A stretch of DNA of 51,350 bases from a virus (taxonomy: Duplodnaviria; Heunggongvirae; Uroviricota; Caudoviricetes): IMG/VR virus record IMGVR_UViG_2690315831_000003; one strand, 5' to 3'. The translations under genes were made by a program, and so were the position numbers. The notes under the pieces were generated by a model. It was not told the origin of the DNA. It was given only the letters and a program-made list of their open reading frames with translations, and ran no database searches. Positions 1,422 through 22,742 of the stretch are shown here, piece by piece; within the stretch, counting starts at the first letter, position 1, and each line of letters begins with the position of its first letter.

Positions 1422-3893
1422 TTAAAAATCAGCCTGACTCGGGATCAGTTTTTGCCAGATGGCTGAAACGTATTTTGCCTGGTAACGCGCATCGTGCAGC
1501 GCGTTATGGCGTTCACCTTCGAATGGAATAGTCGTTCTTGCGTCGAAATCCATCACCAGTCCCAGAGCAACCATCGTTCTTACATCGCGATCATTGGTGT
1601 AACGCCACGGGCAGGGGATCCCCTGCCGTTCATATGAACGGCGTAAAATCACGTTGTCGAAAGTTGCACCGTTACCCCAGACCTGAACAAAAAATTCACC
1701 GGAGTTTTCGTCGATAAATTCCCGGAATTGCAGCAGTGCATCATCCAACGGGATTTCATCGGTCAGAATGGCGGATTGTGCTTCGCGTGACTGTTTCAGC
1801 CACCACTTAATGGTGTCCCGATCGATGACCCCGCCTGCGGTTTCCAGATCGATAGTTTTGCTGAATTCTGGCCCCATCTCTCCGGTTGCCGGATCAAAAA
1901 ACTTACCGGCTATAGCGTTTATTGGCGCATCAGGATTTTTTCCCATTGTTTCAAGGTCAATCATCAGATGGTGCCACAACCTGCTGGTGGATGTGATTTC
2001 ATGATGACCGTTCACTTTAATTAAGGGATTTGCTGTTTCGCCAGTTTTATTATCGCTGGCGTGATACCGATCGCTGACAGTGTTCTCCTTGTGCAGATGT
2101 TCAGTGCCTTCCATTTCCTCCGGATCATTTTCCTGAGCTTCAGCCTGATTCTCTTCATCGAATGTTTCCTGGTAGGTTGCGTTCCCCATCACCGCACCAC
2201 AGTCAGGACAGTTGCCGCCACCGGTCTGACCGCATGCGGTGCAAACTTTTTCCGGTTCTTGTTGCACTTCTGGTTCAGGCAGTTTCGTTTCTGGCTCGTT
2301 TTGTAACGCATTTGGGCTGTTTTGTTCCGCTTTCTGGTCGTTTTGTTCCGATTCGGGCTGGTTCTGGTTCACAGAATCGCGGGTTTCAATCCCCTTAACC
2401 CATTTCGGATCATTCGGGTCGCTAATCCCTTCAACAAACTCACCACGTGATGCACCAAGCAATTTATCGGCGTCAGGCTGGCTGATATTGGCTGCCTGCA
2501 TAATTTTGTTTACTTCGTCAGCGGTAACTTTTACCGGCTCTGGTTGTTCTGAATGTTCAGATATATCTGTATTTTGCGGTAAGCCCATGTATGTGCCGTT
2601 TTTGCGGGCAAAATATTCTTCTTTCGTGATTTCAGTAGCCCCGGCAGCCAGCGCCTTGTCCAGACCAGAAAGTTTGTTTGCGCGACCGTATTTTTCCCCG
2701 TCCTTATCGGTAAAGACGAAATAAAAAGGCCCTTCACGCTCTACAGATGGTTCAGCTTCCACCAGGATTTCATTTTTTTGAGAATTGGATTCCGCCGTCT
2801 CCACTGGATCAGTTTGTTCTGCTGACAGGAGGAGAGCATCAGCAGGGCTCTGGTCTGTTTCTTCATGTTCAAATACGCCCTTTGTAGTCAGGTATTCAGT
2901 GATGTATTTGTTCAGCGCCACGGGATCTTTATGAATGTCGATCGGACGTTCACGAACAAGGCCGAAAATAGTCTGACGGCTGTATAGAAGTGCATCAGGT
3001 TGTTTGCGCATTGATGCAGAGATACGCTTCCAGTCTTCGCGATCCTTGTCGATAACTTCATTTTTTGCCCAGCGATGGATGCTGCCGTCAATGTTTCCGG
3101 CATCAATATCACCAGGCCAGAGAGCGTAAGCCAGCTCTTCATCCAGTGTTTTCCATGTCTGCCTGTATTCGCGACGAATGGCTGTAGTGACAGGGTTGAT
3201 TTTTGCTGCTGAGTTTTCGGTGAGGTGCTGGTTAACTCTGGTGCGTGCGAGATCAACAACAGACGTATATTTTCCGGTTTCCTTGCGTTTACCTTCGCGA
3301 CGTTTTTTCCAGATGCGCATCTCTGCCTGAATTTCTGGCCATTTGGCACCAGGCTTACATTTATGCTTAACCCACCCGATGGCATGCAGTTTAATCTCCG
3401 GATACATGGCGTTAACTTCTGGCATTTTCATCAACGCTTCAACGATATGTCCGTCGAATGTTGCCATGTCTTCCTGCAACAATTCCTGTGCGCTAATCAC
3501 CATATCAACGGTGATGTTTTCACATGTGTCGAACTTAACCATGACAGCGTTCTGTACTTCAGGGGACAGCTTGTCAAAAGTGACGTTCATCGGATCTGAT
3601 TCAGTCTCAACCGGGACAAAGGAAGCAGACGCCTCATCCCAGCGGTTTTCCAGCATATATTCAGCATCCCAGGAGTCGAGGGCTGGGCGGGGTGTACCGG
3701 GTTTATCCTCACAGACAAGAAATTTATAAGCGCAGTCCTGAGCAGCCGGATAATGTTCAAGGAATTGCCAGTGAAATTTTGCGCGGGCGCGACGTTCATC
3801 ACCGGCTTCAATGGCAGTGGCCACAGCAACAGCGCCCTCGTTTTTTATTGCCTGTTCGTCAGGAATGGCGGCGCAAATAAATATTTTACTCAT
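1422..3893 (-). CDS. Large exonuclease (the type often annotated exodeoxyribonuclease VIII-like) with C-terminal DnaQ/DEDDh 3'-5' exonuclease domain
   Basis: 823 aa; C-terminal motifs IDLETMG and HNALHDARYQAK fit DEDDh Exo I and Exo III; Cys-rich CTACGQTGGGNCPDCGA segment mid-protein; RBS GAGG before ATG at 3893. Confidence 0.7.
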   Translation of the reverse strand: MSKIFICAAIPDEQAIKNEGAVAVATAIEAGDERRARAKFHWQFLEHYPAAQDCAYKFLVCEDKPGTPRPALDSWDAEYMLENRWDEASASFVPVETESDPMNVTFDKLSPEVQNAVMVKFDTCENITVDMVISAQELLQEDMATFDGHIVEALMKMPEVNAMYPEIKLHAIGWVKHKCKPGAKWPEIQAEMRIWKKRREGKRKETGKYTSVVDLARTRVNQHLTENSAAKINPVTTAIRREYRQTWKTLDEELAYALWPGDIDAGNIDGSIHRWAKNEVIDKDREDWKRISASMRKQPDALLYSRQTIFGLVRERPIDIHKDPVALNKYITEYLTTKGVFEHEETDQSPADALLLSAEQTDPVETAESNSQKNEILVEAEPSVEREGPFYFVFTDKDGEKYGRANKLSGLDKALAAGATEITKEEYFARKNGTYMGLPQNTDISEHSEQPEPVKVTADEVNKIMQAANISQPDADKLLGASRGEFVEGISDPNDPKWVKGIETRDSVNQNQPESEQNDQKAEQNSPNALQNEPETKLPEPEVQQEPEKVCTACGQTGGGNCPDCGAVMGNATYQETFDEENQAEAQENDPEEMEGTEHLHKENTVSDRYHASDNKTGETANPLIKVNGHHEITSTSRLWHHLMIDLETMGKNPDAPINAIAGKFFDPATGEMGPEFSKTIDLETAGGVIDRDTIKWWLKQSREAQSAILTDEIPLDDALLQFREFIDENSGEFFVQVWGNGATFDNVILRRSYERQGIPCPWRYTNDRDVRTMVALGLVMDFDARTTIPFEGERHNALHDARYQAKYVSAIWQKLIPSQADF

Positions 3894-4173
3894 TGTGTTT
3901 AAACCTCATTACAGATTTCAGGGTGAACGAATCCCTGCCATTGCTGGCATTTTTAATCCGTTGGTATGGCGTTAATATGGCTGGCGGGTTATCCAGCCGG
4001 TGTTTCGTTATTCAGGTACAGCGATACTTTGTTTAACGGGAGACATTCACCGGAAATTTATTGCTCGTCTCTTGCCTGATGGCAGGATTCTTTACTGGCA
4101 TAAATTCCGGTAATCACATTCTGTGGCTCACCTGTTATCAGAAAAACCGTCATCATCAGTGCAAACGCTGAAC

Positions 4174-4362
4174 TCACTGCTGCCCTCCGAAAATGCCAAG
4201 TTTAATAAGGGCAATTCTGGAGAGAATGGAATTATCATTGAGAAGATAAGGCTCATATTTTCTCATCCTGATGGCGTCCTCAGTAAACTCCCGGTTACTG
4301 AGCAGAATACCAATATTAAAACACCCTTCAGACGTATTAACGTTTGGTAGTGACGTTTCCAT
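4174..4362 (-). CDS. dicB: DicB-like cell-division inhibitor
   Basis: 62-aa ORF METSLPNVNTSEGCF... closely matches recalled Qin DicB N-terminus MKTLLPNVNTSEGCFEIG... Confidence 0.75.
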   Translation of the reverse strand: METSLPNVNTSEGCFNIGILLSNREFTEDAIRMRKYEPYLLNDNSILSRIALIKLGIFGGQQ

Positions 4363-4539
4363 TATCGCGTCCTCAACAATGAATTTTGTGATGTGGTGCC
4401 TGGTGCCTCCAGGTGACGTTAACCAGTTAACAATTAACGCCGGATTGTTAGTTGATGTCTGTTACGCCAGTAAAAGACCGCTTGTTTTAACTGTTCCGCG
4501 TGCGCTTAGCCGCATTCACCGCATCACAAAATACACTTT

Positions 4540-4578
4540 AAAAATGGCGGATATCCATTTCCGCCGAATCACCAGAAA
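4540..4578 (-). ncRNA. dicF: DicF-like small RNA immediately upstream of dicB
   Basis: Minus-strand reads UUUCUGGUGAUUCGGCGGAAAUGGAUAUCCGCCAUUUUU: DicF-like 5' seed followed by stem-loop and U-run; downstream spacer also resembles the recalled dicF-dicB spacer. Confidence 0.5.
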
Positions 4579-4890
4579 AGTGATAACAGAGGTTGTTGTG
4601 GCGGTGTTGTCACTCAGGCGTATGGTCAACCTGACAACCCGGTGCATTTTCTGGAGCAATGGAGGAAGCCCCAGCCATACTTACCGCCGCGCCATTTCGC
4701 GGATTGCCACAACCGGAAGCGCACGATCGAATTACATTTAACGACAACATATACAGAGAGACTAACTTCGCCGAGCGCTTTCGTGTTGTGTGCCTGCTTT
4801 TAACCACGTCAGGCGAGGTGGACCTGTTATTCCCCAACAACAAGGAGCTTGTTAATCTGGATATCCCCAACAACAATAAGAGTATTGAAT

Positions 4891-5406
4891 GTGATCGCTG
4901 AATTAACGGCAGCAATGACGGCTATTCGTGAAACCGCTCAGATTACAAAACTAATGAACGAGGCAAAAACTCAAGCTGAAGTAAATGCGGCTATTGGTGA
5001 ACTGAACTCAAAGCTTGCATCTATTCAGCACGAATGCGTGTCTCTCGTTGAGCTGGTGAGCACTTATCAAGAAATAAATGCTTCTCTCAAAGCTAAAATT
5101 GCAGAATTTGAAAACTTTGAGGCTCAGACGGAAGGTTATATCCTTAACCAACTTGAGTCGGGAACTTTTGTGTACTCGAAGGAGGTAACCGTGAACGGCG
5201 GCAGCATAATCATGCATCTTTGTCCAAAATGTTTTGGACAAAAGATAGTATCGATACTTCAACCATTCCCGGTTAGAGAACATGAGTTTTTTCATAAAAG
5301 CAGGTGCCTCTACTGTGAAAATCAGTTTCTTATGAATAAAAATCCGGATTATGTATCGCCTCCATCTATTGAGGAGTTGGCCAGAAAACTGAACGGCAAT
5401 CTGTAG
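4891..5406 (+). CDS. Hypothetical coiled-coil protein with C-terminal CxxC...CxxC zinc ribbon; low-GC cargo gene oriented against the leftward early operon
   Basis: Long ORF in AT-rich DNA; GTG at 4891 with AAGAG upstream (track start 4849 is TTG; ATG alternatives 4915, 4954); motifs CPKCFGQK and CLYCENQF. Confidence 0.45.
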   Translation: MIAELTAAMTAIRETAQITKLMNEAKTQAEVNAAIGELNSKLASIQHECVSLVELVSTYQEINASLKAKIAEFENFEAQTEGYILNQLESGTFVYSKEVTVNGGSIIMHLCPKCFGQKIVSILQPFPVREHEFFHKSRCLYCENQFLMNKNPDYVSPPSIEELARKLNGNL

Positions 5407-5519: not shown

Positions 5520-5672
5520 TTAGTCAGAGTTTCTTGCTAACCAGCGACGCGCGCCAGCTTCAGTTTTAAACGTTTTGCTTCTGGTATACGTCATCGCGGT
5601 AAACGTGCCGTCCTGGTTGGGGAATACTCCGCATACCAGAGATTCGTTGTTGCCAAGATTGAGCGTATCCAT
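5520..5672 (-). CDS. Small YdfA-like early protein (50 aa)
   Basis: Minus-strand ORF MDTLNLGNNESLVCGVFPNQDGTFTAMTYTRSKTFKTEAGARRWLARNSD with GAGG RBS 6 nt upstream; below the 60-aa cutoff of the ORF track. Confidence 0.45.
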   Translation of the reverse strand: MDTLNLGNNESLVCGVFPNQDGTFTAMTYTRSKTFKTEAGARRWLARNSD

Positions 5673-5829: not shown

Positions 5830-5900
5830 GCGGGGTGGGTTGGTGATATAATGTACCTGCTGTTCATTAATGTAAAGTACTTTTAGTACATTTTTGTGAG
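5830..5900 (-). promoter_or_regulatory. Candidate leftward early promoter/operator region (pL-like)
   Basis: Sits between repressor stop and first leftward gene; palindrome AAAGTACTTT and a TTGTGAG motif shared with the oR region; promoter hexamers not resolved. Confidence 0.3.
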
Positions 5901-5967: not shown

Positions 5968-6387
5968 TCAGGAGGCTTTTTGTTTTTTCTTTCGCGCTAA
6001 TTCTTCATAAATTGCGTTGTACTTCTGTTTTTTCTCCTCAAGAGTTTTTAAAAGTTCATCAGTTTCACTGTCAGGGAGTTCATCAAGAAGTTCAATGATG
6101 ATTTTTTGCTTCGGACTTAACTCCTGATAGAAACGCAGGCTTCCGCTTTCTTCAGTGTCCTCCCCCAGAAGGTAAGTTGGTGTTGTTCCGATAAGTGCTG
6201 CCAATTCTTTCAGTTTCTCTCGACGGGGAATTGCCTCTCCATTAAACCATTTACTAACCGCTTTGGGTGTTAGCTTCATTCGACGGGCAATTTCTGCCTG
6301 CCTTCCGTGTTGTTCAAAGCCAGCATTTTCACAGGCTAGCGCAAGCCTGCTGGCGAACTCTTTACGCGCTTCATCTTCATGAACCAT
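5968..6387 (-). CDS. Prophage repressor, DicA-like (HTH only, no S24 peptidase domain)
   Basis: 139 aa; N-terminal HTH segment; C-terminal acidic LP-rich helix resembles recalled DicA C-terminus; divergent from cro-like gene. Confidence 0.8.
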   Translation of the reverse strand: MVHEDEARKEFASRLALACENAGFEQHGRQAEIARRMKLTPKAVSKWFNGEAIPRREKLKELAALIGTTPTYLLGEDTEESGSLRFYQELSPKQKIIIELLDELPDSETDELLKTLEEKKQKYNAIYEELARKKKQKAS

Positions 6388-11393: not shown

Positions 11394-11603
11394 AAACGGT
11401 TTGCGGGGAAAGAAGAGTTAAGTAGAATTGCTGCGGGTGCTTGAGGCTGTCTGCCTCGGGCATGCCGCCGTAAGGCAGACAGAGAAAAGCCCCAGTTAAC
11501 ATTACGCGTCTTGCAGGACGCTTAACATTAATCTGAGGCCCAATCTATGCTTCACAAACGTAGGTTAGCCTCTTACGTGCCGAAAGGCAAGGAGAAGCAG
11601 GCT

Positions 11604-11759
11604 ATGAAGCAGCAAAAGGCGATGTTAATCGCCCTGATCGTCATCTGTATTACCGTTGTTGTGACGGCACTGGTAACGAGGAAAGACCTCTGCGAGGTAC
11701 GAATCCGAACCGGCCAGACGGAGGTCGCTGTCTTCGTAGACTACGAATCTGAGAAGTAA
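11604..11759 (+). CDS. hokD: Hok/Gef-family type I toxin (HokD/RelF-like)
   Basis: 51-aa MKQQKAMLIALIVICITVVVTALVTRKDLCEVRIRTGQTEVAVFVDYESEK nearly matches recalled HokD/RelF; structured 5' leader with 10-bp hairpin and 3' fold-back hairpin GCGAGGGAgaaaTCCCTCGC. Confidence 0.85.
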   Translation: MKQQKAMLIALIVICITVVVTALVTRKDLCEVRIRTGQTEVAVFVDYESEK

Positions 11760-16871: not shown

Positions 16872-16947
16872 GGCCCTTTAGCTCAGTGGTGAGAGCGAGC
16901 GACTCATAATCGCCAGGTCGCTGGTTCAAATCCAGCAAGGGCCACCA
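16872..16947 (+). tRNA. tRNA with CAU anticodon (Ile2/ileX-like or Met)
   Basis: Cloverleaf folded by hand: acceptor GGCCCTT/AAGGGCC, D-arm GCTC-AGTGGTGA-GAGC, anticodon loop CTCATAA, T-loop TTCAAAT, 3' CCA. Confidence 0.85.
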
Positions 16948-16956
16948 TATCACATA

Positions 16957-17033
16957 CCGCCATTAGCTCATCGGGATAGAGCGCCAGCCTTCGAAGCTGG
17001 CTGCGCGGGGTTCGAGTCCTCGATGGCGGTCCA
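16957..17033 (+). tRNA. tRNA-Arg (UCG anticodon)
   Basis: Acceptor CCGCCAT/ATGGCGG, anticodon stem CCAGC/GCTGG with loop CTTCGAA, T-loop TTCGAGT, 3' CCA; unusual C1-G72. Confidence 0.75.
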
Positions 17034-17740: not shown

Positions 17741-17877
17741 CAGGGGGAGAAGATTTTCTCCTGTCCTGATGATTTTGGGGCGCTGGAAAGATATTGTGCT
17801 GTGAAGTGTTAAATCCCTCACAATTCAGTAAGTTGACAGTTGCCTGTCAGACTGAGCATTTGTTAAAAAAATTTCGC

Positions 17878-18053
17878 ATGGTGAATCCCCCTGTGCGGAG
17901 GGGCGACTGGTGAACGGTATGATCTCTTTGATGATCGTAAGCGAGAATACGCGGGTTTGGTGTCACCGGGCTGAACTCACCGGGAGGCACCCGGCACCAT
18001 GCTCATGGTGATACAGAAATGCGGCTTCAGCCCCTCTCCGGAGGGGCTTTCTT
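17878..18053 (+). ncRNA. Putative sRNA, repeat unit A
   Basis: Promoter TTGCCT (17840-17845) / TAAAAA (17864-17869); terminator GCCCCTCTCCGGAGGGGC + T-run at 18030-18052; ORFs across the unit not conserved. Confidence 0.4.
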
Positions 18054-18060
18054 ATGGACA

Positions 18061-18435: not shown

Positions 18436-19161
18436 ATGGATGTTGCCTGCTCTGTGGTCCTGATTCGCTATCCGATAGATATTTTTCTTGAAAAAGAAAA
18501 AGTTTCACTCGATGCCGGAAGTGTTATGCTTGTTGCCAGAAATATAAGAGGGCTTTTCTGTGCTTATGCCGACAGAGTGAAAATGGCAGATATAAGTAAC
18601 AGCGTCGTCAATCAGTATCTGGAAAGGGAGTGTGAACTGACGGAGTATACACCGACAAAAATGCCTCTTTATTTGATGTCTGATATTTACAATACGGAAC
18701 TGGCGGAGGCTTTAATAACCCGGCATAGTGAATCCAGTGATACTTTGAAGGATTTCTCTGTTATAACCGCATTTTCATGTATCTCCTTATTTGCAACAGA
18801 CAGACGTCTGCCATTATTTTTGTCCGGTGCTGTAAATAATATCAGCTGTAAAGTAAGGGCTATAATTCAGACCGACATATCGGCAGGCTGGATGCTTGGT
18901 GTGATTGCATTACAATTGCATATGAGCGAAAGCTTGTTGAAGCGAAAACTTAAGGATGAAGGTTATAGCTTTAGTCGGTTGTTGCTGGAGGAGCGAATGC
19001 GTGTTGCTGTTAATCTTGTATGTTTCCAGCGAGAGTGTGGACAAGCGATAGCGGAAAAATGTGGTTACTCAAGTAAGTCCTACTTCATTTCTGTATTTCA
19101 CCAGTATTATGGTGCACCACCTGAGAGCTATGCATATTTGCAGAAAGCAGACGTTATCTGA
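18436..19161 (+). CDS. AraC/XylS-family transcriptional regulator (cargo)
   Basis: 241 aa; C-terminal dual-HTH AraC signature region; AT-rich locus. Confidence 0.7.
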   Translation: MDVACSVVLIRYPIDIFLEKEKVSLDAGSVMLVARNIRGLFCAYADRVKMADISNSVVNQYLERECELTEYTPTKMPLYLMSDIYNTELAEALITRHSESSDTLKDFSVITAFSCISLFATDRRLPLFLSGAVNNISCKVRAIIQTDISAGWMLGVIALQLHMSESLLKRKLKDEGYSFSRLLLEERMRVAVNLVCFQRECGQAIAEKCGYSSKSYFISVFHQYYGAPPESYAYLQKADVI

Positions 19162-19529: not shown

Positions 19530-19852
19530 AACATATCCTGTATATTTATGTTGTTACATACAGGCGCTTTTAGTATCTGCCGCACGGCAGTTGTACTTCA
19601 GAATAAGATGCTTTTGTGACTGGTGGTGTTGTATCTGGGGTTAGCCAGTAGGCAGGTTCAGAGAGTCCGGTGGTAATTATGTGTATGCAGTGGTTGTTGC
19701 TGTACCGTGGGCAAGTTCTGGAACTGGCTTCGTCCATTGTAGATGATTGTTAGCTGGATATCAGTTACCTCATGGAAATGTTAAATGACTCACAATTCGG
19801 TTGATGGGCTATTGTCTGATCGATGGAAGTCTTGTAAAAACGAGCCAGCATA

Positions 19853-20012
19853 GTGAATCCCCCTGTGCGGAGGGGCGTCTGACATGGTCTCCATAGCGAT
19901 GGTCACAATACGCAGATTCAGTAGTCAGGCTGAATCTACCGGGAGGCACCCGGCACTATGCTGCTTATGGTGTATACATAGCGATCGGCCCCTCTCCGGA
20001 GGGGCTTTTTTT
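19853..20012 (+). ncRNA. Putative sRNA, repeat unit B
   Basis: Same conserved 5' and 3' blocks, divergent middle; terminator 19988-20012. Confidence 0.4.
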
Positions 20013-20111
20013 GTGCGGGAAAAGGCTGTGTTGTTAAGTGTTAAATTCCTCACAGTTCAGATGGTTGATGCTTGCCTGTCTGAGGGGGAGTTGTTAAAAA
20101 AGTTCTGCATG

Positions 20112-20282
20112 GTGAATCCCCCTGTGCGGAGGGGCGACTGGTGTGATTTGCATCTTTTCTGTTGTAGGCAATGCAAACGCGGGTTCAGGGACACCAGACT
20201 GGACTCACCGGGAGGCACCCGGCACCATGTTCATGATGATACAGATACGCAGTGTCAGCCCCTCTCCTGAGGGGCTTTTTTA
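20112..20282 (+). ncRNA. Putative sRNA, repeat unit C
   Basis: Near-identical to unit A over the first ~35 nt and the 3' hairpins; terminator 20258-20282. Confidence 0.4.
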
Positions 20283-20381
20283 TGCAGGAAAAACGCTGTG
20301 TTGTGAAATGTTAAATTCCTCACAGTTCAGATGGTTGATGCTTGCCTGTCTTACGGGGAGTTGTTAAAAAAGTTCTGCATG

Positions 20382-20544
20382 GTGAATCCCCCTGAGCGGA
20401 GGGGCATATCAGCGCAGGTGTTTCTACTCTATCCTTTCTGTGCGGGTTCAGGTGCTGATACTGAACTCACCGGGAGGCACCCGGCACCATGCAGTATACA
20501 GAGATTAGGCATACATCCAGGCTCCTCATCGCAGGAGCCTTTTT
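20382..20544 (+). ncRNA. Putative sRNA, repeat unit D
   Basis: Conserved 5' box and internal hairpin; different terminator GGCTCCTcatcgcAGGAGCC + T5. Confidence 0.35.
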
Positions 20545-20550
20545 ACATGT

Positions 20551-20777: not shown

Positions 20778-22742
20778 ATGGCATTTAAACACTACGATGT
20801 GGTCAGGGCGGCATCGCCGTCAGACCTTGCTGAACGACTGACACAAAAACTGAAGGAGGGCTGGCAGCCATTTGGCAGTCCGGTGGCCATCACGCCTTAT
20901 ACCCTGATGCAGGCCATTGCGGCGGAAGGTGATGTCACCACACCAGTGGCGGTGACCGGTAATGAGGGTAAGGCGGTGGCTGTCAGTGCCACCAGCGACC
21001 CGGAGTATTACTTTGTTGTGGTTCTGGCAGGGCAGTCAAATGGCATGTCGTATGGTGAAGGTCTTCCGCTGCCGGAGACATATGACCGTCCGGACCCGCG
21101 CATTAAGCAGCTGGCGCGCCGCAGTACGGTGACACCGGGCGGTGCAGCATGCAAATATAACGACATCATTCCGGCGGACCATTGTCTGCATGATGTGCAG
21201 GACATGAGCCGCCTTAACCATCCGAAAGCGGACCTGTCAAAGGGGCAGTACGGTACCGTGGGGCAGGGGCTGCATATCGCCAAAAAACTGCTGCCGTTTA
21301 TACCGGCGAATGCGGGTATTCTGCTGGTTCCGTGCTGTCGTGGTGGTTCAGCGTTCACCACCGGAGCTGATGGCACATACAGTGACGCTGGCGGTGCCTC
21401 GGAGAATTCAGCGCGCTGGGGTGTGGACAAGCCGCTGTATAAGGACCTTATCGGTCGAACAAAAGCAGCACTGAAGAAGAACCCGAAAAATGTGCTGTTT
21501 ACCGTGGTGTGGATGCAGGGGGAATTTGATTTTGACGGCACGCCCGGAAATCACGCAGCACAGTTTGGTGCGCTGGTTGATAAATTCCGTGCAGACCTGA
21601 CGGATATGGCAGGTCAGTGCGTTGGTGGCTCTGCTGGCGGTGTTCCCTGGATATGCGGGGACACGACGTATTTCTGGAAGCAGAAGAACGAATCCACGTA
21701 CCAGACGGTGTACGGCAGCTATAAAAACAAAACGGAAAAGAATATCCATTTCGTACCGTTCATGACGGATGAGAACGGGGTGAATGTGCCGACGAACAAA
21801 CCGGAAGAAGACCCGGACATTCCGGGTATCGGGTATTACGGTTCGAAATGGCGTGACAGCTCAGCCACCTGGACGTCACAGGACAGGGCGAGCCATTTCA
21901 GCACCTGGGCACGCCGGGGGATTATTTCCGACCGTCTGGCAACGGCGATTCTGGTGCACGCCGGGAGAACCGCTGAATTCATTACCGGAAAACAGCCTGA
22001 TATGGTGAAGCCCACCGTACCTTCCGGTGAAGGTCCGGAGAGAGAGGCGGAAGCCCCGGTCAGTAACCGAACCCTGATGAGTCTGCTGGCATCCGGCGAA
22101 GACCTGGCATCACAGGGCTGGCGCTATTATCACAAACCGGCGGGCGGAGACAGTGTTAACAAAAACATTGCTGAAGCGGTGGTCAGTGATGCGGGGGCTA
22201 CGGGAGGTAAGGCCCTGCAACTGAACAAACCGGAAAACCACATCTGGTTTCTGGAGCATGATGCAGCCGGACAGGGGGCGGAGTTACTGAAGAAGGGCGG
22301 ACGTGTGAGCGTACGGTTTAAGTTGCCGGGTTCACTGGTGCCGAATCAGTTTGCCCTGGGCATTTACTGGCAGTTGTCGTCCCTGCCGGAGGGGGTGACG
22401 CTGTCAGGAGAAGGTAACGATATGCTGATGTCTTTCTTCCTGCAGACGGATACGACGAACCTGAACGCGATGCATCACAGGAAGCCGAATGCGAAGCTGG
22501 ATACATTCGGGGTCTTTGATAACGGATGGCACACGCTGGCTTTTGAGTTTGCCGGAAACAACAGCATTCAGGTGACACCAGTACTGGATGAGAAACGGGG
22601 AGCGGCGTTCACACTGGTGAAGTCACCGGCATCGGGGGCGGCGGACAAACTGCAACTGACCGATATATCAAAATCGGCGACGTATACGCTGCTGATTGAC
22701 AGCATTGCGGTGGAAGTGAACAGCACAGACACTGCGGCATGA
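20778..22742 (+). CDS. nanS: Prophage 9-O-acetyl-sialate esterase NanS-p-like (SGNH hydrolase)
   Basis: 654 aa; GQSN motif in VVLAGQSNGMSYGEG; same location relative to the stx site as the NanS-p gene of Stx phages. Confidence 0.7.
   Translation: MAFKHYDVVRAASPSDLAERLTQKLKEGWQPFGSPVAITPYTLMQAIAAEGDVTTPVAVTGNEGKAVAVSATSDPEYYFVVVLAGQSNGMSYGEGLPLPETYDRPDPRIKQLARRSTVTPGGAACKYNDIIPADHCLHDVQDMSRLNHPKADLSKGQYGTVGQGLHIAKKLLPFIPANAGILLVPCCRGGSAFTTGADGTYSDAGGASENSARWGVDKPLYKDLIGRTKAALKKNPKNVLFTVVWMQGEFDFDGTPGNHAAQFGALVDKFRADLTDMAGQCVGGSAGGVPWICGDTTYFWKQKNESTYQTVYGSYKNKTEKNIHFVPFMTDENGVNVPTNKPEEDPDIPGIGYYGSKWRDSSATWTSQDRASHFSTWARRGIISDRLATAILVHAGRTAEFITGKQPDMVKPTVPSGEGPEREAEAPVSNRTLMSLLASGEDLASQGWRYYHKPAGGDSVNKNIAEAVVSDAGATGGKALQLNKPENHIWFLEHDAAGQGAELLKKGGRVSVRFKLPGSLVPNQFALGIYWQLSSLPEGVTLSGEGNDMLMSFFLQTDTTNLNAMHHRKPNAKLDTFGVFDNGWHTLAFEFAGNNSIQVTPVLDEKRGAAFTLVKSPASGAADKLQLTDISKSATYTLLIDSIAVEVNSTDTAA

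What the first reader, a model, noticed from the sequence alone, without database searches (positions are those of the whole stretch)
4174..4578. DicF-like sRNA and DicB-like division inhibitor in the leftward early operon
The minus strand encodes a DicB-like 62-aa protein and, 178 bp upstream, a short RNA with a DicF-like 5' seed (UUUCUGGUGA..GGCGG) and terminator. DicF (targets ftsZ mRNA) and DicB (MinC-dependent division inhibition) are a known prophage module; this copy has a shorter, variant DicF body that might shift target specificity.
Basis: partly seen in the sequence, partly recalled or inferred. Interest (0 to 1): 0.5.

Follow-up and report, generated by a model that had tools for sequence, protein, structure and literature searches.

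The report
Short DicF variant upstream of dicB
This prophage carries the known dicF-dicB cell-division-inhibitor module, but its small RNA is a 39-base version that keeps only the first 10-11 bases and the terminator of DicF and has lost the part that pairs with the ftsZ message, so it is an ordinary module with a moderately interesting natural variant.

Summary
On the minus strand, 4540-4578 reads UUUCUGGUGAUUCGGCGGAAAUGGAUAUCCGCCAUUUUU. A 62-aa DicB (Pfam 112.6 bits) starts 178 nt downstream at 4362.

The locus matches E. coli K-12 Qin dicF-dicB in gene order and flanking sequence (86% mean column identity over about 340 nt). The RNA is therefore the positional homologue of DicF. Its hairpin body is replaced by a 6-bp stem with an 8-nt loop, and the seed diverges after nt 10-11.

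Rfam's DicF model scores K-12 DicF at 76.7 bits but does not detect this variant even at E<=10.

In K-12, the missing or altered part is the region shown experimentally to pair with ftsZ. My calculations also place the manX and pykA-RBS pairing there. The xylR pairing drops from 10 to 6 bp.

The processing context is conserved: the upstream RNase E site context, the terminator, and a long helix in the dicB leader.

The variant occurs in 442 of 5426 complete E. coli genomes, including O157:H7 Sakai prophage Sp14, and in E. albertii. It is one of at least five seed/hairpin combinations at this locus.

Most likely it is an intra-operon terminator and processing module that yields a minimal 5'-seed sRNA no longer repressing ftsZ, leaving division inhibition to DicB. 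Expression is untested.

Verdict: new variant of a known kind, moderate interest.

The parts
4540..4578 (-). Short DicF-family RNA (39 nt if processed and terminated as in K-12): UUUCUGGUGAUUCGGCGGAAAUGGAUAUCCGCCAUUUUU
   Evidence: Sequence read. Pattern match is unique in the window. Alignment to K-12 dicF. The 5' end is placed by homology to the RNase E-generated K-12 5' end (L002 3883). The 3' end is the U-tract.
4568..4578 (-). Conserved 5' seed UUUCUGGUGA(U). It is identical to K-12 DicF nt 1-10; nt 11 onward differ (UUC versus CGUUU).
4546..4565 (-). Replacement terminator hairpin: GGCGGA / UCCGCC stem (6 bp) with loop AAUGGAUA. It is followed by A+U5 at 4540-4545.
   Evidence: Fold; terminator scan.
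4579..4685 (-). Conserved non-coding leader upstream of the RNA, shared with K-12 and every DicF-bearing variant aligned. It includes the ...CUGUUAUCA(C/A) context of the K-12 RNase E cleavage site.
4363..4539 (-). Structured dicF-dicB spacer and dicB leader. A long-range helix pairs 4517-4537 with 4378-4398. This is a candidate RNase III substrate. There is a sub-threshold STnc100-like match.
   Evidence: RNAalifold on 7 loci. Single-sequence fold gives z = -3.37. Rfam STnc100 scores 33 bits against a cut-off of 47, and K-12 behaves the same way.
4174..4362 (-). dicB, 62 aa.
   Evidence: Pfam PF05358, 112.6 bits. 56% identity to K-12 DicB. RefSeq names the homologue DicB.
4058..4177 (-). ydfD-like DUF1482 ORF. 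Its start overlaps the dicB stop (GTGA). It is truncated to 39 aa by an AAA->TAA change at 4058-4060.
   Evidence: Pfam DUF1482. Alignment with the 62-aa homologue and with K-12 ydfD.
5520..5672 (-). ydfA-like DUF1391 ORF, first gene of the operon.
   Evidence: Pfam PF07151, 103 bits. Synteny with K-12 ydfA.
5848..5876 (-). Candidate operon promoter in the PL/dicBp position: TTTACA-17-CATTAT.
   Evidence: Consensus scan only. Its position between the repressor gene and the ydfA-like ORF matches K-12.
5968..6387 (-). DicA/CI-type HTH repressor, 139 aa.
   Evidence: Pfam HTH_3. Same position as dicA in Qin.
1422..3893 (-). 823-aa exonuclease (ydfE/RecE-position gene), downstream in the same operon. 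An excisionase-like ORF (1109-1357) and the integrase (1-1131) follow.
   Evidence: Pfam PF16473; ORF list; annotation of the homologous locus.

Best explanation
This is the dicF-dicB module of a lambdoid prophage's leftward early operon, carrying a natural truncated allele of dicF. When the DicA/CI-like repressor is lifted, transcription from the PL-like promoter runs through ydfA and the conserved leader. Part of it stops at the short GGCGGA/UCCGCC hairpin plus U5. RNase E cleavage at the conserved ...UAUCAC|UUUUCUGG site would leave a roughly 39-nt RNA. Read-through transcripts fold the U-tail and the next ~25 nt into a long helix with the dicB leader, which is a likely RNase III site as for the 72-nt K-12 form, and they go on to express DicB. 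DicB blocks Z-ring assembly through MinC. Because the hairpin body was replaced and the seed is altered after nt 10-11, this RNA has lost the nucleotides that K-12 DicF uses against ftsZ. By my calculations it has also lost those used against manX and the pykA RBS, and it keeps only a 6-bp remnant of the xylR pairing. Its remaining roles are therefore an intra-operon terminator and processing element, and possibly a minimal 5'-seed sRNA (UUUCUGGUGA). Division inhibition in this prophage would rest on DicB alone. Shown here: homology, synteny, structure, loss of the pairing region, and distribution. Inferred: processing sites, production and stability of the RNA, Hfq binding, and loss of ftsZ control.
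For: The terminator fold is. The 3' region of K-12 DicF is required for ftsZ repression (DicF9 and DicF23 mutants) and the 5' end for xylR (PMC5069750). My duplex and cofold calculations place K-12 pairing to ftsZ, manX and the pykA RBS in nt ~25-53, and pairing to xylR in nt 6-15. The short RNA shows only weak 6-8 bp contacts. The ddG values are ftsZ -13.9 versus -5.3, xylR -13.3 versus -5.9, manX -13.0 versus -3.1, and pykA -9.7 versus -7.5 kcal/mol. The processing context is conserved: the upstream flank, the terminator, and a long helix of about 21 bp in the window's own fold (about 28 pairs in the alignment consensus) in the spacer. The allele is not a one-off. It occurs in 442 of 5426 complete E. 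coli genomes, in Sakai Sp14, in E. albertii, and in 19 of the 80 closest dicB loci in IMG/VR.
Against: There is no expression evidence. Hfq-CRAC in Sakai lists no peak at the Sp14 copy, although canonical DicF is not reported there either, presumably because the operon is repressed. The thermodynamic comparison has little power: experimentally validated K-12 DicF pairings with ftsZ and manX do not beat shuffled controls in my test. The 5' seed has an 8-bp wobble-rich match to the ftsZ Shine-Dalgarno region, so residual ftsZ regulation is not excluded. The window copy has an A between stem and U-tract and only 5 U, so termination may be weak and Hfq binding uncertain. Conservation of the seed cannot be separated from the recent common ancestry of these prophage segments.
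Confidence: 0.6

Rival explanations
1. Neofunctionalised sRNA. The short RNA is a stable, Hfq-dependent regulator whose retained seed, possibly with the new loop AAAUGGAUAU, controls its own target set. That set could include the still unidentified targets behind the DicF toxicity that maps to the 5' region. The hairpin swap would then be an adaptive change that separates metabolic or toxic regulation from division control.
For: The seed UUUCUGGUGA is identical in every short copy retrieved without requiring it, from dicB-anchored loci. Seeds and hairpins occur in at least five combinations at this locus. One is the mirror image, with the seed replaced and the K-12 hairpin kept, and its stem carries a compensatory GGUGG/CCACC change. 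In K-12, growth inhibition depends on the 5' region rather than on ftsZ pairing (PMC5069750). The variant is frequent, at 8% of genomes.
Against: No target was identified here. Only 10-11 nt of the seed are retained, and the validated xylR pairing is cut to 6 bp. The RNA would be unusually short at 39 nt with a 5-U tail. No expression or Hfq data exist. The high overall identity of the region means that an invariant seed is weak evidence for selection.
Confidence: 0.2
2. Decayed remnant. An internal deletion destroyed DicF, and what remains is only a transcription terminator or attenuator in front of dicB. No functional small RNA accumulates.
For: The Rfam DicF model finds nothing. The new hairpin resembles the 3' half of another DicF hairpin type (11 of the last 14 nt match the 55-nt type, by my reading), which fits an internal deletion. 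The neighbouring ydfD-like gene carries a nonsense mutation in this window, showing some decay in the operon. 16 of the 80 dicB loci have no DicF at all, so dicB does not need it.
Against: The stem arms, U-tract, RNase E context and spacer helix are all intact. The same allele persists in hundreds of genomes and in two species with only 1-3 substitutions. Only one stem-breaking variant was seen among 19 copies.
Confidence: 0.2

Closest known systems
DicF sRNA of the E. coli K-12 Qin prophage (Rfam RF00039)
   Same: It sits at the same position in the dicB operon, about 175-178 nt upstream of dicB. The flanks are homologous. The first 10 nt are identical (UUUCUGGUGA). The GGCGG/CCGCC closing stem and U-tract are the same, and the downstream spacer helix is conserved.
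   Different: It is 39 nt rather than 53-58 nt. The hairpin interior, which carries the ftsZ-, manX- and pykA-RBS-complementary bases, is replaced by an unrelated 8-nt loop. Seed nt 11-15 differ. It gives no Rfam hit, against 76.7 bits for K-12.
DicB division inhibitor (Pfam PF05358) and the dicBF operon
   Same: It is a full-length 62-aa match. The operon order is the same: repressor, ydfA, dicF, dicB, ydfD, exonuclease.
   Different: It is only 56% identical to K-12 DicB, with most divergence in the C-terminal half. ydfB and ydfC are replaced by an opposite-strand 185-aa ORF. The ydfD-like gene is truncated.
Laboratory separation-of-function alleles DicF9/DicF21 and DicF3 (Balasubramanian et al. 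2016)
   Same: The short variant resembles DicF9/DicF21-type alleles, in which ftsZ pairing is lost and part of the 5' function is kept. The seed-less natural variant (S2H1) resembles DicF3.
   Different: These are natural alleles with whole-module replacement rather than point mutations, and their activities are untested.
Prophage 'anti-sRNA' family AgvB/AsxR (Tree et al. 2014)
   Same: These are short (51-60 nt) prophage sRNAs that share a conserved 3' terminator module with variable 5' seeds, so they show the same kind of modular variation.
   Different: They lie at a different locus (the late-region moron site), are primary transcripts, and have an unrelated sequence. The AgvB Rfam hit here is noise (15 bits, E = 4.3).

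Membership tests
DicF (Rfam RF00039) | Score at or above the family gathering threshold (48 bits) against the covariance model | tested here: not met
   No DicF hit in window 4100-4800 even at E<=10, and none for the E. albertii short copy at E<=1. Controls: K-12 76.7 bits, seed-less variant 61.1, 55-nt variant 43.5.
DicF (Rfam RF00039) | Located inside the dicB operon, upstream of dicB, with homologous flanks | tested here: met
   Synteny. About 340 nt aligned at 86% mean column identity, and 178 nt to the dicB ATG.
DicF (Rfam RF00039) | Single-stranded 5' seed UUUCUGGUGACGUUU | tested here: inconclusive
   The first 10 nt are identical; nt 11-15 differ and the linker is 2 nt shorter. The seed is unpaired in the predicted fold.
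DicF (Rfam RF00039) | 3' hairpin region complementary to the ftsZ ribosome binding site (experimentally required in K-12) | tested here: not met
   The hairpin interior is absent. The best ftsZ contacts of the short RNA are 8-9 nt and weak. The K-12 requirement comes from PMC5069750.
DicF (Rfam RF00039) | Rho-independent terminator forming the 3' end | tested here: met
   6-bp GC-rich stem followed by A+U5.
DicF (Rfam RF00039) | Biogenesis by RNase E (5' end) and RNase III (alternative 3' end); Hfq binding | not testable with these tools
   Only the sequence context is conserved. No Hfq-CRAC peak is listed for the Sakai Sp14 copy.
DicF (Rfam RF00039) | Overexpression blocks FtsZ synthesis and causes filamentation | not testable with these tools
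   Requires an experiment.
DicB (Pfam PF05358) | Full-length match above the Pfam gathering score | tested here: met
   112.6 bits against a cut-off of 27, residues 1-62 of 62. 56% identity to K-12 DicB, E = 8e-22.
DicB (Pfam PF05358) | MinC-dependent division inhibition | not testable with these tools
   Known for K-12 DicB (PMC6832061). Not testable for this 56%-identical variant.
STnc100 / PasD-type prophage sRNA (Rfam RF02076), considered for the dicF-dicB spacer | Score at or above the gathering threshold (47 bits) | tested here: not met
   33 bits in the window spacer and 30-38 bits in other loci. Four genuine copies score 120-172 bits elsewhere in the window.

The most novel reading that the evidence does not exclude
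The DicF locus may be a natural module-swapping site. A 5' seed module and a 3' hairpin module appear to assort independently among prophages. Five combinations were seen: seed+K-12 hairpin, seed+short hairpin, seed+alternative hairpin, new 5' end+K-12 hairpin, and new 5' end+alternative hairpin. This would give paralogous sRNAs with separated functions. The short allele would be a 'division-blind' DicF that keeps only the 5'-seed regulon, possibly including the unidentified targets behind DicF toxicity. On this reading, strains such as O157:H7 Sakai carry it in Sp14 in addition to the four canonical copies reported in the literature.
Probability: 0.3. Interest if true: 0.55.

Novelty: new variant of a known kind. 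Interest (0 to 1): 0.36.

Why it matters
DicF is a textbook prophage sRNA whose two ends regulate different targets. A widespread natural allele lacking the ftsZ-pairing end is invisible to Rfam-model scans. It is also invisible to the >99%-identity criterion used to collect dicF copies in the one survey I could read. DicF copy counts in pathogenic E. coli may therefore be incomplete. Together with the mirror-image seed-less allele, it offers ready-made natural separation-of-function alleles. These could be used to ask which DicF activities (division block, metabolic control, toxicity, or virulence control in EHEC) are selected in prophages. For genome annotation, the practical point is that dicB loci should be checked for non-canonical DicF forms. 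None of this changes the basic picture of the dicBF module.

Tried and rejected
1. AgvB-like anti-GcvB sRNA. There is a weak Rfam AgvB hit over 4540-4609 (15 bits, E = 4.3) and a CACAACA motif upstream. I rejected this reading because AgvB sits at the late-region moron site and is a primary transcript, the score is at noise level, and the motif lies upstream of the homologous processing site.

2. The spacer as a true STnc100 copy. It is sub-threshold in every locus, so I kept it only as a side note.

3. Expression evidence from Hfq-CRAC in Sakai. No peak is listed at the Sp14 copy. This is uninformative because canonical DicF is not listed either. I first looked in Sp10, which turned out to be Rac-like with kilR/sieB and no dicB.

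4. Shuffle-based significance for sRNA-mRNA binding energies. Validated K-12 pairs do not stand out, so I did not use the z-scores.

5. Unrestricted duplexfold gave long, loop-rich duplexes that were hard to interpret. I replaced it with a loop-limited, accessibility-corrected scan.

6. Seed-complementary sites within the phage. There were 9 one-mismatch hits against 3.2 expected, including the RNA's own locus, with no coherent target.

7. Sequenced phage isolates (INPHARED). No match to the short allele.

8. Melson & Kendall 2019, Murashko & Lin-Chao 2017 and Faubladier & Bouché 1994 could not be read. I therefore could not check whether any of them already shows this allele.

Full report
**What is there**

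The minus strand of 4540-4578 reads UUUCUGGUGAUUCGGCGGAAAUGGAUAUCCGCCAUUUUU. It folds into three parts:
- a 13-nt unpaired 5' end;
- a 6-bp GGCGGA/UCCGCC stem with an 8-nt loop (4546-4565);
- an A+U5 tail.

The dicB start lies 178 nt downstream of the tail. The ORF at 4174-4362 encodes a 62-aa protein that matches Pfam DicB over its whole length (112.6 bits, cut-off 27). It is 56% identical to K-12 DicB. A locus 99.7% identical in E. coli 2013C-4282 is annotated 'cell division inhibition protein DicB'.

**Is the RNA related to DicF?**

Yes, by position and descent. In K-12 Qin the order is dicA, ydfA (DUF1391), ydfB, ydfC, dicF, dicB, ydfD (DUF1482), ydfE. In the window the order on the minus strand is:
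- HTH repressor (5968-6387);
- DUF1391 ORF (5520-5672);
- the short RNA;
- dicB;
- DUF1482 ORF;
- an 823-aa exonuclease;
- an excisionase-like ORF and the integrase.

About 340 nt around the RNA align to the K-12 dicF region at 86% mean column identity. The identical elements are the upstream context CUGUUAUCA-UUUUCUGGUGA, the stem arms GGCGG/CCGCC, the U-tract, and most of the spacer down to the dicB start.

The differences are confined to the RNA itself. The linker after GGUGA is UUC instead of CGUUU. The 27-nt hairpin interior of K-12 DicF is replaced by AAAUGGAUAU. The net loss is 19 nt.

The Rfam DicF model gives 76.7 bits for K-12. It gives nothing for the window copy even at E<=10 in a 701-nt search, and nothing for the E. 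albertii copy. The RNA is therefore a homologue of the dicF locus that fails the family's scoring test.

Lack of annotation in RefSeq is not informative. Canonical DicF is also unannotated in the RefSeq records I saw listed.

**What the missing part does in K-12**

Balasubramanian et al. 2016 (PMC5069750) established the following:
- The 3' region of DicF pairs with the ftsZ ribosome binding site. The DicF9 and DicF23 mutants, with a compensatory ftsZ mutation, support this.
- The 5' end pairs with xylR (DicF3, DicF11).
- pykA regulation needs both the DicF23 site and the DicF3 site.
- Growth toxicity maps to the 5' region rather than to ftsZ control.

My accessibility-corrected scans reproduce this geography for K-12 DicF:

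| Target | K-12 DicF nucleotides used |
|---|---|
| xylR +10..+19 | nt 6-15 (10 contiguous pairs) |
| pykA RBS | nt 26-42 |
| manX +35..+50 | nt 38-53 |
| ftsZ -29..+26 | nt 4-53, including CUCCG against the ftsZ GGAG |

The short RNA keeps none of nt 17-47. It shows only short contacts: 6 bp with xylR, 7 bp with pykA codons 2-4, and an 8-bp wobble-rich match to the ftsZ SD.

Cofold binding energies compare as follows:

| Target | K-12 DicF (kcal/mol) | Short RNA (kcal/mol) |
|---|---|---|
| ftsZ | -13.9 | -5.3 |
| xylR | -13.3 | -5.9 |
| manX | -13.0 | -3.1 |
| pykA | -9.7 | -7.5 |

These energies do not separate validated K-12 pairs from shuffled RNAs in my control. The argument therefore rests mainly on the published mutational map plus the physical absence of those nucleotides, not on the energies.

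**Biogenesis context**

The sequence around the K-12 RNase E-generated 5' end is conserved.

A consensus fold of seven loci predicts a long helix of about 28 pairs. It joins the U-tail plus the next ~25 nt to the segment just 5' of the dicB Shine-Dalgarno. In the window this helix pairs 4517-4537 with 4378-4398. The 249-nt read-through RNA folds much better than shuffles (-76.3 kcal/mol, z = -3.37).

The helix is in the right place to be the RNase III substrate that gives the 72-nt K-12 form (PMC5069750; PMC9438474). That assignment is my inference.

A PL-like promoter candidate lies at 5848-5876 (consensus only).

The signals for making and releasing a small RNA therefore look intact. Whether the RNA accumulates is unknown. 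Hfq-CRAC in O157:H7 Sakai lists no peak at the Sp14 copy. It does not list canonical DicF either, as expected for a repressed operon.

**Distribution and relatives**

A 61-nt query specific for the short allele finds it in 442 of 5426 complete E. coli genomes, at 528 places, all at >=95% identity. Many of these are O157:H7 genomes. In Sakai it lies in prophage Sp14, 179 nt upstream of ECs_2768 dicB. It is also present in E. albertii. It is absent from sequenced phage isolates in INPHARED. Canonical DicF is found in 3975 of 5426 genomes.

I then anchored on dicB rather than on the RNA. The 80 IMG/VR loci encoding the closest DicB relatives show these forms upstream:

| Form at the DicF position | Loci |
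|---|---|
| Canonical DicF (seed S1 + hairpin H1) | 27 |
| Short allele (S1 + H2) | 19 |
| UUUCUGGUGA seed and upstream context replaced, K-12 hairpin kept (S2 + H1) | 14 |
| Different 5' end plus a third hairpin (S3 + H3) | 4 |
| No DicF-like terminator within 450 nt | 16 |

- **S2+H1.** Its stem carries a compensatory GGUGG/CCACC change. It occurs in about 207-296 complete genomes.
- **S1+H3.** This 55-nt form turned up in the pattern scan.
- **Linkage.** DicF type is not linked to DicB type, because DicB proteins 97% identical to the window's sit behind both long and short alleles.
- **Rfam DicF scores.** S1H1 scores 76.7 bits, S2H1 61.1, S1H3 43.5, S3H3 29.0, and S1H2 gives no hit.
- **Origin of the short hairpin.** Its 3' half resembles that of H3 (11 of the last 14 nt, by my reading). 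That would fit origin by internal deletion, but this is only suggestive.

**Interpretation**

The most likely reading (confidence about 0.6) has three parts:
- This is a standard dicBF module whose dicF allele has lost the ftsZ-, manX- and pykA-pairing domain.
- The element still serves as the intra-operon terminator and processing site in front of dicB, and may release a minimal RNA carrying only the UUUCUGGUGA seed.
- Division inhibition by this prophage would then depend on DicB and MinC (PMC6832061).

Two rivals differ in what the RNA itself does. One is a neofunctionalised regulator acting through the retained seed (about 0.2). The other is a dead remnant that is only a terminator (about 0.2). 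Sequence alone cannot separate them.

**Comparison with the known, and novelty**

The module and both gene families are well known. I found no description of this short allele in the papers I could read. 'DicF-like' occurs in only two papers in the library. The surveys I could read counted copies >99% identical or reported four copies in EHEC.

I rate it a new variant of a known kind, of moderate interest. Its value is as a natural separation-of-function allele and as a reminder that Rfam-based counts miss part of the DicF family.

Noticed in passing
window 4363-4539 (-); also L002 3947-4087: The dicF-dicB spacer gives a reproducible sub-threshold match to the prophage sRNA family STnc100/RF02076 (30-38 bits, cut-off 47) in the window, K-12 and four other loci. 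It shares the GGUGAAU...UCACCNGGAGGCACCNGGCACC architecture. A long-range helix links the DicF U-tail region to the dicB leader next to the Shine-Dalgarno.
   Followed up: partly
window 17847-18059, 19819-20014, 20078-20287, 20349-20550 (+): Four full STnc100 copies (120-172 bits) lie in the late-region moron site, three of them in tandem at 19819-20550. They sit between two tRNA genes (16872-17030) and a 654-aa ORF (20778-22742) that I take to be a NanS-p-like esterase from recall, without running a family search. A 241-aa ORF (18436-19161) that looks AraC-like from its sequence, also not searched, sits among them.
   Followed up: no
window 11435-11609 (+): A sok antitoxin RNA of a hok/sok-type toxin-antitoxin locus (117.7 bits) lies in the early-right region.
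   Followed up: no
window 4058-4060 (-): The ydfD-like DUF1482 gene downstream of dicB carries an AAA->TAA nonsense change that truncates it to 39 aa. A locus 99.7% identical over the 651-nt dicF-dicB query encodes 62 aa, and K-12 YdfD is annotated as a lysis protein.
   Followed up: yes
window 4849-5406 (+): A 185-aa ORF with CxxC...CxxC motifs and no Pfam match is inserted on the opposite strand, between the ydfA-like gene and the DicF leader. It occupies the place of ydfB/ydfC in Qin. Operon transcription must cross it in antisense.
   Followed up: no
L165 1263-1314, L212, and about 207-296 complete E. coli genomes: A mirror-image DicF allele exists. The UUUCUGGUGA seed and its upstream context are replaced by AUGUGUAGUCUUU, while the ftsZ-pairing hairpin is kept with a compensatory GGUGG/CCACC stem change. 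It still passes the Rfam DicF threshold (61.1 bits).
   Followed up: partly
L154 42679-42716 (NC_002695.2 about 2707678-2707715, prophage Sp14): E. coli O157:H7 Sakai carries the short DicF allele (with C instead of A after the stem) upstream of ECs_2768 dicB. I could not check whether it is counted among the 'four dicF copies' reported for EHEC.
   Followed up: partly
window 4596-4602 (-): A CACAACA motif, the consensus target of the GcvB R1 seed, lies about 18 nt upstream of the DicF-like 5' end and is absent from K-12. It is probably chance, since the AgvB Rfam hit is only 15 bits (E = 4.3).
   Followed up: partly
L191-L195, L201-L203, L207, L211, L232, L233 (16 of 80 dicB loci): In some prophages dicB is preceded directly by an ORF that looks antirepressor-like to me (not searched). 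There is no DicF-like terminator within 450 nt, so dicB also occurs without any DicF.
   Followed up: no
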